From assembly GCA_964016885.1 (NCBI GenBank), contig OZ024742.1, positions 205,468,001-205,532,000 of the forward strand: DNA of 64,000 bases, read 5' to 3'. The number at the start of each line of letters is the position of its first letter. Positions within the stretch are counted from its first letter, which is position 1. The notes under the pieces were generated by a model, which saw only the letters and a program-made list of their open reading frames with translations, did no database searches and was not told where the DNA came from. Origin of the DNA: Eledone cirrhosa. Taxonomy: Eukaryota. The position numbers and the translations under genes were made by a program. Shown here piece after piece: positions 2,749 through 42,131 of the stretch.

Positions 2749-2814
2749 TATTTCATTATATATATTTCGGGGATATCATATTAACAATATGCTATGCCTT
2801 CATCAGACAAAATA
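2749..2814 (-). ncRNA. Hammerhead ribozyme (family 1), inverted pLTR copy
   Basis: Exact reverse complement of 3907-3972. Confidence 0.8.
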
Positions 2815-3274
2815 CAATATAAACAGTTTTATAGATAAATATATTCGACATACCGTAATAAACATCAACTTCATTTGAAGAGGTTTACTCTAGCAGTGAA
2901 AATACAGAGAGAAAGAAAGAGAGAAAGAAAAGAGGGAAAAACGAAAGAAAGAAAGACAAAACGAAGAGAAGGAAGAAAAAGAAGAAAAAGAAAAAGAAGA
3001 GATGCATGGAACAAAATAGAGAGATGGAAAAATAGATAAAGTGAAGAGCTTCATGTAAAGAGACAGAAAGATATATATATATATAGAGAGGAAATAGAGA
3101 TAGATACATATATATATATATAGAAAATTAGGTAGTGGGAGGTCATTTTGAGTAAGTGTATCAATGATACATTTATTTATTTATTTATTTATTTATTTAT
3201 TTATTTAGCTCAAGTATTAATGTAAGGGAGATATATAGAGAGATATAGAGAGATATAGAGAGAGAAAAAAATTT

Positions 3275-4109
3275 ATGTCACATAGACATATGAATTTTTA
3301 AAACTAAACATAAGATAATGAATTTTCACACATTGTGAATACTTGTTTCATTCAGGAATACTGATATTTACAGTGTAGTGTAAGTTTTATAAATATATAA
3401 ATACTAATACATTAAAACATAGGGTTTTCTACGCCTCGAATATGTCTGGATATTTTTAAATTTTTTTTTCTCTCTCTATATCTCTCTATATCTCTCTATA
3501 TATCTCCCTTACATTAATACTTGAGCTAAATAAATAAATAAATAAATAAATAAATAAATAAATGTATCATTGATACACTTACTCAAAATGACCTCCCACT
3601 ACCTAATTTTCTATATATATATATATGTATCTATCTCTATTTCCTCTCTCTCTATATATATATATCTTTCTGTCTCTTTACATGAAGCTCTTCACTTTAT
3701 CTATTTTTCCATCTCTCTATTTTGTTCCATGCATTTCTTTTTCTTTTTCTTCTTTTTCTTCCTTCTCTTCGTTTTGTCTTTCTTTCTTTCGTTTTTCCCT
3801 CTTTTCTTTCTCTCTGTATTTTCACTGCTAGAGTAAACCTCTTCAAATGAAGTTGATGTTTATTACGGTATGTCGAATATATTTATCTATAAAACTGTTT
3901 ATATTGTATTTTGTCTGATGAAGGCATAGCATATTGTTAATATGATATCCCCGAAATATATATAATGAAATAAATATGGTTTTATAAATATAGTTTTCCA
4001 TTTATTTAATATTGTAAATATACTCCAAATATTTGTCGAGTGCTTTTATATCAGTTATAAATATTTACTAGTTGTAACCCAACAATTTTAAATATAACTT
4101 TACATGTAT
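3275..4109 (+). repeat. 5' pseudo-LTR of PLE
   Basis: Direct repeat of 7248-8078, differing mainly in simple-repeat lengths. Confidence 0.92.
3907..3972 (+). ncRNA. Minimal type-I hammerhead ribozyme (family 1)
   Basis: Stem I UAUUUUGU/AUGAAAUA, CUGAUGA 3915-3921, imperfect stem II (CAUAUU/AAUAUG core), GAAA 3953-3956, palindromic UAUAUA stem III, AUA site at 3964. Confidence 0.8.
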
Positions 4110-4151
4110 CTTGCTCCAATACTGTTGAGCGCTTTATATTATAATTGAAAA

Positions 4152-38312: not shown

Positions 38313-38329
38313 ATATACAAATATATATA

Positions 38330-40968
38330 CATCATCATCACCGTTTTACGTCCGTTCTTCCACGCTAGCATGGGTTAGACGGGTTGTCCTGTTGTGTGCA
38401 GTGTCTGGTCGGCTGACCATGCCTTGCTCATACAGGAACTGATCTGGCTTGATTTCTACAGTTGGATGCCCTTCCTAACACCAACCTCATTTACAGTGAG
38501 TGCTGGGTGCTTTTTCGTGGCGCCTACACGTCCACTTTACAGTGTGGGCTGGGTGCTTTTTTGCCGTGGCACCTCCACGACCACCTTGCGGTGGGGGGTG
38601 TGGGGGCATATTGTTTATATGCTTCAGCATGTACCCATGGGAGGTCGGGTACTCTGTATTACTGCGTGACGCCAGAAGTCACGGTCGTGTGTCATTGTCT
38701 TTGAGAGGTGTAATTGGGTAAGGTCGGCTTTTATCACCTCATCCCAGGTCATCTTGGGTCTCCCCACTCCGCGGTTTCCATCAACTTCTAGTGCTCTGCA
38801 CCTTTTTATGCAGCTGTCATCCTTCATACGCATCACATGTCCATACCAGTGCAACCGCCTCTCCTGCACACAGCATTTGATTCCTCTTATGCTCAGTCTC
38901 TCTCTCAATTCATTTATGCTTTGTCGTTCACGTATATTACTGTTACACATCCATCGGAGCATGCAGGCTTCGTTTCTCTCTAATCTACGTAAGTCTTCCA
39001 CCTTCAGCGCCCAGGTCTCACTACCATGCAACATCGCTGTTCGGATACACGCATCATACAGTCTGCCTTTCATTCTGAGGGAGAAGCCTTTTGCAGCTAG
39101 CAGTGGTAGTAGTTCCCTAAACTTCTTCCAACCCGTTCTTACCCTAGTTATTGTACTTTCTGAACACCCACCTCCGTTGCTAATTCGGTCACCTAGGTAG
39201 CAGAAGCTGTCTACTGTTTCTACAGGGCCCTCCCAGAGATTGGTGGTACTTGTTTCCTGTGGCTGTTTGCAGCTTGCTGTTTCAGCACAGCTGCTGCATG
39301 TGAATCCTACATTCTTAATTAAGCTTCCTGAGATCCCGCTACATCTCTTGTGTACCCATTGTTTGCATTTGGGGCAGAGAATGGAGTTCCTACCTACACC
39401 TTTCCTACATACTGAGCAAGGCCATTTCCCTGAGGGGATCTGGGTTCTGTTTTCTCGTCTACTTACAAGGACCTTAGTCTTTGTCATGTTGACTTTGAGA
39501 CCCTTTCTTTCTAGTCCCTGCTTCCAGGTTTGGAATTTATTCTCTTGTTCTACCATAGATTCAGCTATGAGTGCGAGGTCATCAGCATACAGGAGTTCCC
39601 ATGGGCATCCGGTCTTAAACTCCTCCATTATTGCCTGCACGACTATGATGAACAGGAGAGGGCTAAGAACAGAGCCCTGGTGGACCCCAACCTGTACGCT
39701 AAATTCCTCGCTATACTCATTGCTAATCCTAACTTTGCCGACTGCTCCCCTATACATGGCTTGTACCGCTTTCACAAGCCATTCATCTATTCCTAGTTTT
39801 CTAAGAGCCCACCAGATTACAGCACGTGGAACTCTGTCAAAGGCTTTCTCAAGGTCGACAAATGCCAAGTAGAGTGGCTTACTTTTAGCTAGGTACTTTT
39901 CCTGTAATTGCCTCACAAGGAAGAGGGCATCAGTGGTGCCTCTTCCTGGTACAAACCCAAATTGCATCTCGTCTATTTTCACCCGGTCCCTAATCAACTG
40001 TGCTATAACTCTTTCTGTTACTTTCATGACCTGGTCCATCAACTTGATACCTCTATAGTTTCCTCTATCTAGTGCATCGCCTTTACCTTTGTAGCAGTTG
40101 ACAATGATGCTACTGCACCAATCTTTTGGTATGGCCCCTTCTAGTATTACCTGGTTAACGATACGTGTGGTTATAGTGTGACCTACAGACCCAGATGCCT
40201 TGAGCATCTCGGCAGCTATATCCGATGGACCGGTTGCCTTCCCCATCTTCATATCTTTGATTGCCTTACTTACCACGCTGCTGCTGACTTGTACTGCTGG
40301 TCCCTCTATAGGGTCTACTTGGGGTAGGGTCTCTTCTTCCCATGCATTCTCCTCATTTAGTAATCTACCATAATGACTCTTCCATGCATCTTTCTTCTCA
40401 GCACTTGTGAGGGCAAGCTCACCTTTATCATTCCGGATACACTTCTCTCCAATGACATCACAACTATCTCTGACACACTGCCTCGCAATCTTGAATACCT
40501 CCTGTTTCTGGTCCCCACGTTGTAAAACATGCTTGAATTTTCTATCCTCTGCTTCCCTCCTAGCTAAGTATACTTGTCGTCTAGCTTCCCTCTTGGTCTC
40601 TATGTAATGTACCCTGCTCCCCCCGTTCTTCCATTCTTTCCATGCCTGTCTCTTGGCCTTAACTGCTTCATATACCTTATTGTTCCCCCACCAAGTCACT
40701 CTCCTCCTGCTTGAGGTCTTACTCCAGCCACAGACCTCATCCGTCGCCTCTAGTAAATTATTTTTTAGGAACTCCCAGTTCTCTTCTACGTTAAATGTCT
40801 CTATCTGTTCTTCTTTACAGTCGTAGGCGTTGAGTAAAATATCTTTAAATCTGTTACTGGTTGAGGGGACTTTCAGCTTCCAGATCTTTCTTCTCCAGGT
40901 TGGCCTCTGTTTCCGGGTTCGTCTAGTTCTGACTGTGAGGTCGCTGACAACTAAGCTATGTTGGGATG
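38330..40968 (-). mobile_element. RTE LINE subfamily A, longest copy (end of AP endonuclease to tail), tail-to-tail with previous element
   Basis: Open frame 38624-40968 from SQHSLVVSD through RT and PHD-type finger. Confidence 0.96.
38624..40968 (-). CDS. RTE ORF (truncated APE end + RT + PHD-type finger)
   Basis: All RT motifs present without stops; the N-terminal YI stretch in the ORF track is microsatellite. Confidence 0.88.
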
Positions 40969-41107
40969 TACATATATACAAATATATATATATATACATA
41001 TATACAAATATATATATATACATATATACAAATATATATATATATATATATATATATATATACAAATATATATATATATATATATATATACAAATATATA
41101 TATATAT

Positions 41108-42131
41108 AGCGGCGATGAATTAGTTTAGCGATGTTTTTTATATGAAATCGTGTGTCGAAACAAATATTGTTATACTTGGGGAGGGTCATATTTGTGTAAT
41201 ATTGCCAGAATTAATAACAGAACACACTCACTGTTTGGTTGGTTTTCGCTTCTCGCTGTCTTTTATATCTGCGATCTAACTTAATCGGTCCTCAATGTTG
41301 CCATTGACTGACCGATTGAATAAAAAATGGCGTAGACATACAACACAACAGGAGGAAAAAATATAACACCACTGACGATGTTGCAGATGCGCAACGAAAG
41401 ATTTATGTAAATTATGTAAACTATATATATGTGTTTGTGTCTATATTGTATCTGTATTATTTTTGACCGTCGGTCAGTCAATGGCAACATTGAGGACCGA
41501 TTAAGTTAGATCGCAGATATAAAAGACAGCGAGAAGCGAAAACCAACCAAACAGTGAGTGTGTTCTGTTATTAATTCTGGCAATATTACACAAATATGAC
41601 CCTCCCCAAGTATAACAATATATATATATATATATATATATACAAATATATATATATATATACAAATATAAATATATATATATACAAATATAAATAAATA
41701 AATACATACACAAGCACAATAACAACAAACACATATAAACACACACTAGTAAAGATAGAATACATTAACCAATACACAGTCACCCAATCACGAACACACA
41801 TCAAACGAAATAAAATAAACAAATAAATAAATATATAAACAGACTAAATAAAGATGGCATAGACATACAATGTAACGGGAGGAAACAATAGTACCACTGA
41901 CGATGTTGCAGATGTGCAACGAAAGAAATTTTATAAACTATATATATGTGTTTGTGTCTATATTGTATCTATATTAATTTTGACCATTGGTCAGTCAATG
42001 GCAACATTGAGGACCGAATAAATTAGATTACCGATATAAAAGACGCAGAAGCGAAAAGCGAAAACCAACCAAACAGTGAGTGTGTTCTGTTATTAATTCT
42101 GGCAATATTACACAAATATGACCCTCCCCAA
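41108..42131. mobile_element. Non-coding element with inverted (41165-41314/41469-41620) and tandem (41325-41610/41853-42131) repeats and hammerhead-like cores
   Basis: pLTR-like inverted + direct architecture; CUGACGA-U-GUUGC..GCAAC-GAAA at 41372-41399 and 41897-41924; 41108-41195 resembles 35320-35405. Confidence 0.6.

What the first reader, a model, noticed from the sequence alone, without database searches (positions are those of the whole stretch)
2749..41924. Hammerhead ribozyme hotspot: ~13 ribozymes plus 2 partial cores from 8-9 unrelated families in 40 kb of (AT)n DNA
Seen: most non-coding, non-SINE islands in the microsatellite nest carry a type-I hammerhead (2749-, 3907+, 7876+, 13988-, 15867+, 17062-, 19216-, 20319-, 23274+, 28008-, 36362+, 36596+, 37078+; partial 41372+, 41897+). 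Their stems are unrelated in sequence, yet all complete ones have a tiny (near-)palindromic stem III (UAUAUA, UGAUCA, CCACUGG, UGCGCA, CUAG, CGAUCG) and an NUA triplet. I saw none beyond 48 kb. Known: Penelope-like elements carry minimal type-I hammerheads that cleave as dimers, and non-LTR retrozymes are PLE-mobilised. Inference: most copies here have no coding sequence nearby, suggesting a diverse community of non-autonomous hammerhead retroelements sharing one (AT)n landing zone, on both strands of a possible host intron.
Basis: partly seen in the sequence, partly recalled or inferred. Interest (0 to 1): 0.85.

Follow-up and report, generated by a model that had tools for sequence, protein, structure and literature searches.

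The report
Penelope retrotransposon tails carrying hammerhead ribozymes
The hammerhead motifs are real, but 13 of the 15 sites are tail ends of seven protein-coding Penelope-like retrotransposon families and only two belong to non-coding families that likely hitch-hike on them; the window is an ordinary TA-rich stretch of a genome with over 200,000 such motifs, which are predicted, not shown, to self-cleave.

Summary
The motifs are real; the hotspot and the 'non-autonomous community' are mostly not. A structure scan finds 11 type-I hammerheads in the window against 0.13 in shuffles, 13 when relaxed. The 15 sites form nine families. Seven (13 sites) are 3′ UTR/pseudo-LTR ends of RT + GIY-YIG Penelope-like elements (PLEs): six Hydra-clade, one Neptune-type. 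They look non-coding because copies are 5′-truncated. Two are non-coding: G (36368), a ~445-nt tandem retrozyme, and C (17115), a ~2.9-kb ORF-less unit with PLE architecture. Two core patterns match 218,543 times genome-wide (control 9,810). The window is 2–3.5-fold above that average and equal to other TA-rich pieces. What is new: the count exceeds the largest published figure I found (126,247, axolotl), and 8 of 9 long retrozyme arrays seen have a head-to-head 5′ inversion like PLE insertions, the four fetched ones with near-identical monomers, which favours one-step rolling-circle insertion by PLE proteins. Cleavage and expression are untested. One unchecked scan note reports similar ribozyme-free arrays in another genome.

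The parts
2710..8075 (+). Family A: near-complete Hydra-clade PLE insertion: inverted 5′ copy, pLTR, ORF, 3′ UTR, pLTR; flanked by (TA)n
   Evidence: Direct repeat spacing about 3,970 nt and inverted arms; ORFs; motifs
2757..2806 (-). A hammerhead in the inverted 5′ copy (core start 2806, predicted cleavage after 2757)
3915..3964 (+). A hammerhead in upstream pLTR
4149..6366 (+). A RT + GIY-YIG ORF in two overlapping frames (broken near 5704-5738); RWR, DKT, CxCX5C motifs
   Evidence: best named homologs are Argonauta hians proteins, 36-41% identity
7884..7933 (+). A hammerhead in 3′ pLTR
13763..16040 (+). Family B: 5′-truncated Hydra-clade PLE with inverted 5′ copy; direct copy lacks about 700 nt of 3′ UTR
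13998..14097 (-). B hammerhead (U4C core, 81-nt stem II), inverted copy
14772..15707 (+). B ORF fragment: RT end, CxCX5C linker, GIY-YIG
15876..15975 (+). B hammerhead (U4C core), direct copy
17006..17229 (-). Family C: 3′ end of a young non-coding ~2.9-kb PLE-style unit; hammerhead 17115 to 17066
19109..19470 (-). Family D inverted copy; hammerhead 19269 to 19223
20260..20440 (-). Family E: 3′ end of a Hydra-clade PLE; hammerhead 20365 to 20327
20708..23430 (+). Family D direct copy: microsatellite-rich 3′ UTR interrupted by other repeats; hammerhead 23281-23327
   Evidence: Maps in order onto L194, which runs RT-EN-UTR-hammerhead
27965..28721 (-). Family F: 3′ UTR remnant of a Hydra-clade PLE; hammerhead 28070 to 28016
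35312..36047 (+).
36008..36514 (+). Family G: partial monomer of a ~445-nt tandem retrozyme, inverted arm 36008-36203 plus direct part 36215-36514; hammerhead 36368-36398
36510..36712 (+). Family F second insertion; hammerhead 36604-36658
36757..37266 (+). Family H: head-to-head remnant of a Hydra-clade PLE 3′ end; core 37078-37201 lacks its native stem I 5′ strand
41106..42136 (+). Family I: 3′ UTR/pLTR pieces of a Neptune-type PLE with altered hammerhead cores at 41372 and 41897

Best explanation
The sites are the hammerhead-bearing 3′ ends of seven protein-coding Penelope-like retrotransposon families, plus one tandem retrozyme and one 2.9-kb non-coding unit, all likely inserted into (TA)n by PLE endonuclease/RT proteins, with hammerheads predicted to cleave as dimers. 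Shown: motif anatomy, linkage of seven families to RT + GIY-YIG ORFs, lack of ORFs in C and G, partial-tandem and inverted-5′ architecture, (TA)n adjacency, genome-wide abundance. Inferred: paired hammerheads in tandem transcripts swap stem III strands and cut out unit-length RNA, which may circularise; the GIY-YIG nicks (TA)n and RT copies from the 3′ end, usually stopping early, so most copies keep only UTR plus hammerhead; more-than-unit copying and a strand switch give partial tandems and head-to-head inversions; repeated targeting of the same TA tracts stacks families. C and G would borrow this machinery in trans.
For: ORF linkage: A complete in the window. B: the window's EN ORF (93-100% identical) lies upstream on the same strand in 9 of 18 other loci, two pairs of which view one insertion each. 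D: EN followed by D UTR or hammerhead in 8 of 25 loci; L194 runs RT-EN-UTR-hammerhead. E: ORF upstream and hammerhead downstream in 20 of 30; F: 24 of 30. H: 7 of 23, and L166 reads pLTR-ORF-pLTR; I: 16 of 24, and L165 has an unbroken 1,217-codon frame between two I copies. Hydra motifs match Craig et al. 2021 section 11, which also reports (TA)n insertion. 52 of 66 sampled motifs have (TA)6 within 250 nt downstream versus 15% of 2,339 random positions. C: same-strand ORF in 0 of 24 loci, and 0 of 30 for an older subfamily; longest open frame 112 aa. G: ~445-nt tandem arrays. Stem III with A15.1/U16.1 is fully self-complementary in 6 of 9 families.
Against: No cleavage or expression data. Unconstrained dimer folding gave the swapped stem III for only 2 of 9 families (F, H). 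Published metazoan PLE hammerheads cleave poorly even as dimers (PMC4209133), and 8 of 9 Xenopus retrozyme dimers did not cleave. Loci anchored on the hammerhead show no ORF within 1.5 kb for E (0 of 24), F (0 of 24) and D (0 of 9); linkage came from loci chosen by upstream sequence, so those fractions describe long copies only. No autonomous partner sharing sequence with C or G was found, so which clade moves them is inferred. Clade assignment is by motifs; no tree was built.
Confidence: 0.88

Rival explanations
1. One reading: a local hotspot where a community of unrelated non-autonomous hammerhead retroelements has gathered.
For: Window density is 2.1-3.5 times the genome average for two core patterns. 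C and G lack ORFs. Many short copies of coding families may be moved in trans; this was not tested.
Against: Seven of nine families link to RT + GIY-YIG ORFs. TA-rich random pieces have the same density, and 9 of 50 sampled 10-kb pieces equal or exceed the window's best block. The same families co-nest at other loci.
Confidence: 0.05
2. The tandem retrozyme arrays (G and relatives) grew in place as minisatellites by unequal crossover or slippage from a single inserted PLE end, not by one retrotransposition of a concatemer.
For: This model is discussed in the 2026 preprint. Young arrays could be homogeneous either way; arrays of one subfamily are 97.7-99.5% identical to each other, close to the within-array values. 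Shorter arrays of 3-4 monomers at six places showed no inverted hammerhead upstream.
Against: All 4 fetched arrays with 6 or more monomers are head-to-head; monomers across the inversion are 99.5-100% identical in the three compared; the array ends inspected abut (TA)n. Listings show 4 of 5 further arrays of 5 or more with the same polarity. Crossover does not predict a fixed 5′-to-5′ inversion.
Confidence: 0.2
3. Family C is only the long 3′ UTR of an autonomous PLE whose ORF I did not reach.
For: Coding families here have UTRs of 1-2 kb. Only 40 of 1,367 and 40 of 1,568 candidates were scored.
Against: In partial tandems (L029, L173, L180, L360) the unit starts right after the preceding hammerhead tail, where A, H and I start their ORF, and runs ORF-free to the next hammerhead.
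Confidence: 0.1
4. The motifs are inherited, catalytically silent relics or serve only as protein-binding structure.
For: Low in-vitro activity in related motifs; window copies of H and I are damaged.
Against: Core and pairing are kept across families with different stem sequences, which implies selection on the fold during transposition.
Confidence: 0.15

Closest known systems
Hydra-clade Penelope-like elements (Craig et al. 2021, PMC8557442)
   Same: C-terminal GIY-YIG without CCHH, RW[K/R], DKT, CxCX5C linker, hammerhead in pLTR, (TA)n insertion, partial tandem and inverted 5′ copy
   Different: Units of A and H are about 4 kb, against 'generally <3 kb'; the paper found few families outside cnidarians, whereas at least six occur in this window alone
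Minimal PLE hammerheads (Cervera and de la Peña 2014, PMC4209133)
   Same: Type I, short palindromic stem III, often an extra base at the 5′ end of stem II, mostly dispersed single motifs from truncated PLEs, nearby pairs on opposite strands
   Different: Far higher count (over 200,000 pattern matches versus thousands there); U4C cores and 81-105-nt stems II in families B and H
Metazoan non-LTR retrozymes (Cervera and de la Peña 2020, PMC7229834; Li et al. 2026, 10.64898/2026.07.22.740005)
   Same: G: ~445-nt low-GC (36%) non-coding monomer, one type-I hammerhead each, tandem arrays, predicted circle 70% paired
   Different: Head-to-head 5′ inversion and (TA)n flanks are not mentioned in the text I searched; no homologous autonomous pLTR found for G; circRNA not shown
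Neptune/Nematis-type PLEs
   Same: Families I and J: CX2-5CxxC linker before a C-terminal GIY-YIG; hammerhead core in pLTR
   Different: Clade not fixed by a tree; I has a weak stem I and a CUU triplet

Membership tests
Hydra-clade PLE (A, B, D, E, F, H) | Single ORF with RT and C-terminal GIY-YIG | tested here: met
   Window ORFs and loci L166, L167, L194, L244, L265; for B only the RT end and EN were seen
Hydra-clade PLE (A, B, D, E, F, H) | CxCX5C linker | tested here: met
   Found in 6 of 6 families
Hydra-clade PLE (A, B, D, E, F, H) | RWK-type motif and DKT | tested here: inconclusive
   RWR in A and H; DKT in A and E by motif scan and in H's translation in L167; the region was not held for B and F and not checked for D
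Hydra-clade PLE (A, B, D, E, F, H) | CCHH absent; CxxC and CxH around conserved E/N | tested here: met
   Read from A's EN translation only
Hydra-clade PLE (A, B, D, E, F, H) | Hammerhead in pLTR and (TA)n insertion | tested here: met
Hydra-clade PLE (A, B, D, E, F, H) | Phylogenetic placement with reference Hydra RTs | not tested
   No named reference sequences were in hand
Neptune/Nematis-type PLE (I, J) | CX2-5CxxC linker before C-terminal GIY-YIG | tested here: met
Non-LTR retrozyme (G) | Tandem monomers of a few hundred nt, each with a type-I hammerhead, low GC, non-coding | tested here: met
   Period 430-467 nt, GC 36%; the window copy itself is a partial monomer
Non-LTR retrozyme (G) | Self-cleavage and circular RNA accumulation | not testable with these tools
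   Needs RNA or bench work
Non-LTR retrozyme (C) | Short (150-450 nt) tandem monomer | tested here: not met
   Unit about 2.9 kb, about 1.7-2.2 kb in the older subfamily; only partial tandems seen; better called a non-autonomous PLE
Canonical type-I hammerhead | Loop 1/loop 2 tertiary contacts and Rfam match | tested here: inconclusive
   No Rfam hammerhead match; tertiary contacts were not modelled

The most novel reading that the evidence does not exclude
This octopod-like genome carries the largest hammerhead load I could find on record (over 200,000 cores), driven by a radiation of Hydra-clade PLEs, and its retrozymes and a 2-3-kb non-coding lineage are PLE parasites inserted in one step: PLE RT rolls round a ribozyme-made circle, lays down up to 20 identical monomers at a (TA)n nick, and leaves the same head-to-head 5′ inversion as the PLEs. 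That would be direct genomic evidence for which enzyme moves animal retrozymes and how.
Probability: 0.6. Interest if true: 0.65.

Novelty: new member of a known kind. Interest (0 to 1): 0.45.

Why it matters
Hammerheads in PLE ends, Hydra-clade (TA)n targeting and PLE-linked retrozymes are all published, so the window itself is ordinary for this genome. The genome-wide picture has value. It holds about 209,000 net hammerhead cores in 3.0 Gb, against 126,247 in an axolotl genome given as 28 Gb. Young families supply matched material for the open question of what PLE hammerheads do: C's top copies are 99-100% identical and I has an unbroken 1,217-codon frame. Retrozyme arrays with PLE-type inversions give a signature that separates rolling-circle retrotransposition from satellite-style growth.

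Tried and rejected
Rfam: no hammerhead family found; none of 4,227 families matched the C unit at E up to 1. Pfam recognised 0 of 4 PLE frames; assignment rests on motifs and tblastn. The PLE ORF directly upstream of a G array at L096/L107 looked like G's partner, but 0 of 24 other copies of that ORF lead into G within 1.5 kb, and one runs into a different hammerhead: rejected. A first test of B's linkage gave 0 of 18 because it allowed only 120 nt; one search showed a 700-nt UTR missing from the window's direct copy. My first genome estimate of 0.4-0.5 million (83 motifs in 50 sampled 10-kb pieces, shuffles 1.9) was too high: exact counts for two family motifs were 17,660 and 24,166 against extrapolations of 35,950 and 65,909, and tandem arrays inflated the sample, so I use the direct counts. 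Expression: no RNA holder listed for G; the four runs laid were contigs and gave no information on ends or circles. Dimer folding was not decisive. Literature: 'hammerhead ribozymes' + 'cephalopod' gave 0 papers; 'hammerhead ribozyme' + 'octopus' gave 5, none on this subject by title and abstract start; the O. vulgaris repeat paper has 0 mentions of hammerhead or ribozyme. Lünse et al. was not available. Supplements were not read, and Craig et al.'s files may list cephalopod Hydra families. I recall tens of thousands of hammerheads for the much smaller Schistosoma mansoni genome but did not verify it, so I claim the largest count found, not a record density.
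Full report
Observation. The window is 64 kb of an unnamed 3.0-Gb animal assembly (G000:C3). The best named homologs of the window's RT are Argonauta hians proteins, so I infer an octopod-like host. A type-I hammerhead scan (core, three stems, near-palindromic stem III) finds 11 motifs against a mean of 0.13 in 100 shuffles. 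All have AUA or GUA triplets. Corrections: B has a CCGAAGA core and an 81-nt stem II; the 37078 copy lost its stem I 5′ strand to an inversion centred on 37079; the 41372 and 41897 cores are altered copies of a family whose common form closes with GAAC and CUU. Rfam does not detect these motifs.

Families. The 15 sites fall into nine families: A (three sites), B (two), C, D (two), E, F (two), G, H, I (two). A is one insertion of inverted copy, pLTR, RT + GIY-YIG ORF (4149-6366, in two frames), UTR and pLTR. For the others I searched the genome and walked upstream. B: the window's EN frame lies about 700 nt upstream on the same strand in 9 of 18 other loci, two pairs of which view one insertion; an earlier test allowing only 120 nt gave 0 of 18. 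D: 8 of 25 loci chosen by an EN fragment continue into D's UTR or hammerhead, and L194 runs RT-EN-UTR-hammerhead. E and F: loci chosen by upstream UTR have an ORF upstream and the hammerhead downstream in 20 of 30 and 24 of 30. H: 7 of 23 loci have the ORF upstream, and L166 reads pLTR-ORF-pLTR; I: 16 of 24, and L165 has an unbroken 1,217-codon frame between two I copies. Loci chosen by the hammerhead itself show no ORF within 1.5 kb for E, F and D (0 of 24, 0 of 24, 0 of 9).

Clades. A, B, D, E, F and H all have the CxCX5C linker; A and H have RWR; A, E and H have DKT; A's EN lacks CCHH and has the CxxC and CxH motifs. These are the diagnostic features of the Hydra clade in Craig et al. 2021 (PMC8557442; I read section 11 and 12 passages), which also reports hammerheads and (TA)n insertion in almost all families. 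I and the unlisted J fragment (35544-36047) have the CX2-5CxxC linker of Neptune/Nematis type. No tree was built.

Two non-coding families. G occurs as tandem monomers of 430-467 nt, 36% GC, one hammerhead each. An ORF beside one array is not its partner, since 0 of 24 other copies of that ORF lead into G. One degenerate G motif matches 24,166 times. C's top-scoring copies are 99-100% identical to the window's. They form partial tandems and inversions, but the ~2.9-kb unit has no frame over 112 aa, no PLE protein similarity and no Rfam match. It starts where coding families start their ORF. An older subfamily, about 88% identical, is also ORF-free in 30 of 30 loci on the same strand. Only 40 candidates were scored per search.

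No hotspot. Whole-genome counts give 103,001 and 115,542 matches for two core patterns, with reversed-pattern controls of 9,530 and 280. That is about 209,000 net, one match per 13.7 kb. The patterns omit long-stem and U4C families; 64 of 74 such matches in my sample passed the structure scan. The window holds 10 (4.7 expected; 2.9 expected in 2.7-42 kb), from seven insertions. Its 2.7-42 kb part is 22% TA tract against 4.9% in the sample. The 12 TA-rich sampled pieces average 2.1 matches per 10 kb against 2-3 here, 9 of 50 pieces hold three or more, and two pieces just downstream hold 8 and 13. The sample was 40 random pieces from seven contigs plus 10 at fixed positions on others. Leaving out one 17-copy array, 52 of 66 sampled motifs have (TA)6 within 250 nt downstream, against 15% of random positions. 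My first extrapolation of 0.4-0.5 million was inflated by arrays and is withdrawn.

Arrays. All 4 fetched arrays of six or more monomers (L179, L321, L374, L366/L367; three families) consist of a minus-strand block joined head-to-head to a plus-strand block. Monomers are 99.6-100% identical within blocks and 99.5-100% across the inversion in the three compared; the ends I inspected abut (TA)n. Arrays of 3-4 monomers at six places showed no inverted hammerhead upstream, and some of these are cut by the locus edge. In the listed matches, 4 of 5 further arrays of five or more show the same polarity. This is the inverted 5′-truncated copy that Craig et al. describe for PLEs. Assembly artefact is not excluded, and arrays of one subfamily are nearly as alike between loci (97.7-99.5%), so homogeneity alone is weak evidence.

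Mechanism. Shown: anatomy, linkage, architecture, target and counts. Inferred from published work: short palindromic stems III let two hammerheads cleave as a dimer and release unit-length RNA that may circularise and template more-than-unit reverse transcription (PMC4209133, parts 1-2 of 4 read; PMC6765202, passages). Stem III with its closing pair is fully self-complementary in 6 of 9 families, but free dimer folding produced the swapped helix in only 2 of 9. Activity in related motifs is low. No cleavage or expression was tested.

Comparison and novelty. Dispersed minimal hammerheads from truncated PLEs, including opposite-strand pairs, are described in PMC4209133. Non-LTR retrozymes and their proposed PLE mobilisation are in PMC7229834 (passages and section 15) and in the 2026 preprint (parts 1-3 of 5 and a term search). 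A term search found 'inverted' 0 times in the first and once, in a reference title, in the second. The largest count I read is 126,247 in axolotl. Searches found no paper on cephalopod hammerheads; subscription papers and supplements were not seen. I also searched passages of PMC7761336 and PMC6155905 without finding a higher count. One unchecked scan note (e1-7881736) reports PLE-type tandem insertions of a ribozyme-free unit in another genome; I saw it after and did not test it.

Verdict. The finding as framed is a new member of known kinds and the region is ordinary for its genome. The genome-wide load, the Hydra-clade radiation and the inverted retrozyme arrays are worth following. Interest 0.45.

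Noticed in passing
L366:7100-10000 and L367:1-6000 (7-16 kb past the window's end): A 20-monomer, 465-nt hammerhead array (9 minus, 11 plus, head-to-head, identity 1.000) between (TA)n tracts; about 62% identical to G monomers.
   Followed up: yes
L321:143-5200; L374:6100-8050: A third retrozyme family, 310-311-nt monomer with CGCG stem III, in head-to-head arrays of at least 17 and of 6 copies.
   Followed up: partly
L179:3782-9626: G-related subfamily (80% identical to the window's G), 465-nt monomer, 9 minus plus at least 4 plus copies; a run of N lies at one end.
   Followed up: partly
L165:1526-5176: Unbroken 1,217-codon Neptune-type frame in a tandem of at least two family-I units, with an Asn-rich N-terminal region.
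   Followed up: partly
window 15876, 14097; L292, L307, L312, L313, L326, L328: U4C cores (CCGANGA) recur in several families: 7 of 83 sampled motifs. The effect on catalysis is untested.
   Followed up: no
window 17577-18853, 26050-27860, 29501-31861, 37344-40977, 45062-47700, 61500-64000: Many copies of RTE-like LINEs with a PHD-type finger after RT (Pfam RVT_1 and PHD for 29505-31421), ending in (GAT)n and also nested in TA tracts; the RTE label is recalled.
   Followed up: no
window 44754-44822, 47765-47828: tRNA-derived SINE heads just above the Rfam tRNA threshold; similar copies at about 22400-22470 and 24580-24620.
   Followed up: no
window 21213-22130 and 23437-24560: Two copies of an unidentified ~1-kb repeat with an internal short tandem unit and no hammerhead; one interrupts family D's UTR.
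   Followed up: no
L107:1-1045; L033, L039, L066: Further PLE families of other clades (YIDD/YLDD RT cores); one has its own hammerhead family.
   Followed up: partly
window 48400-49310: Possible splice-site-bounded host exon in the TA-poor part; no open frame recognised, so the intron idea is untested.
   Followed up: no
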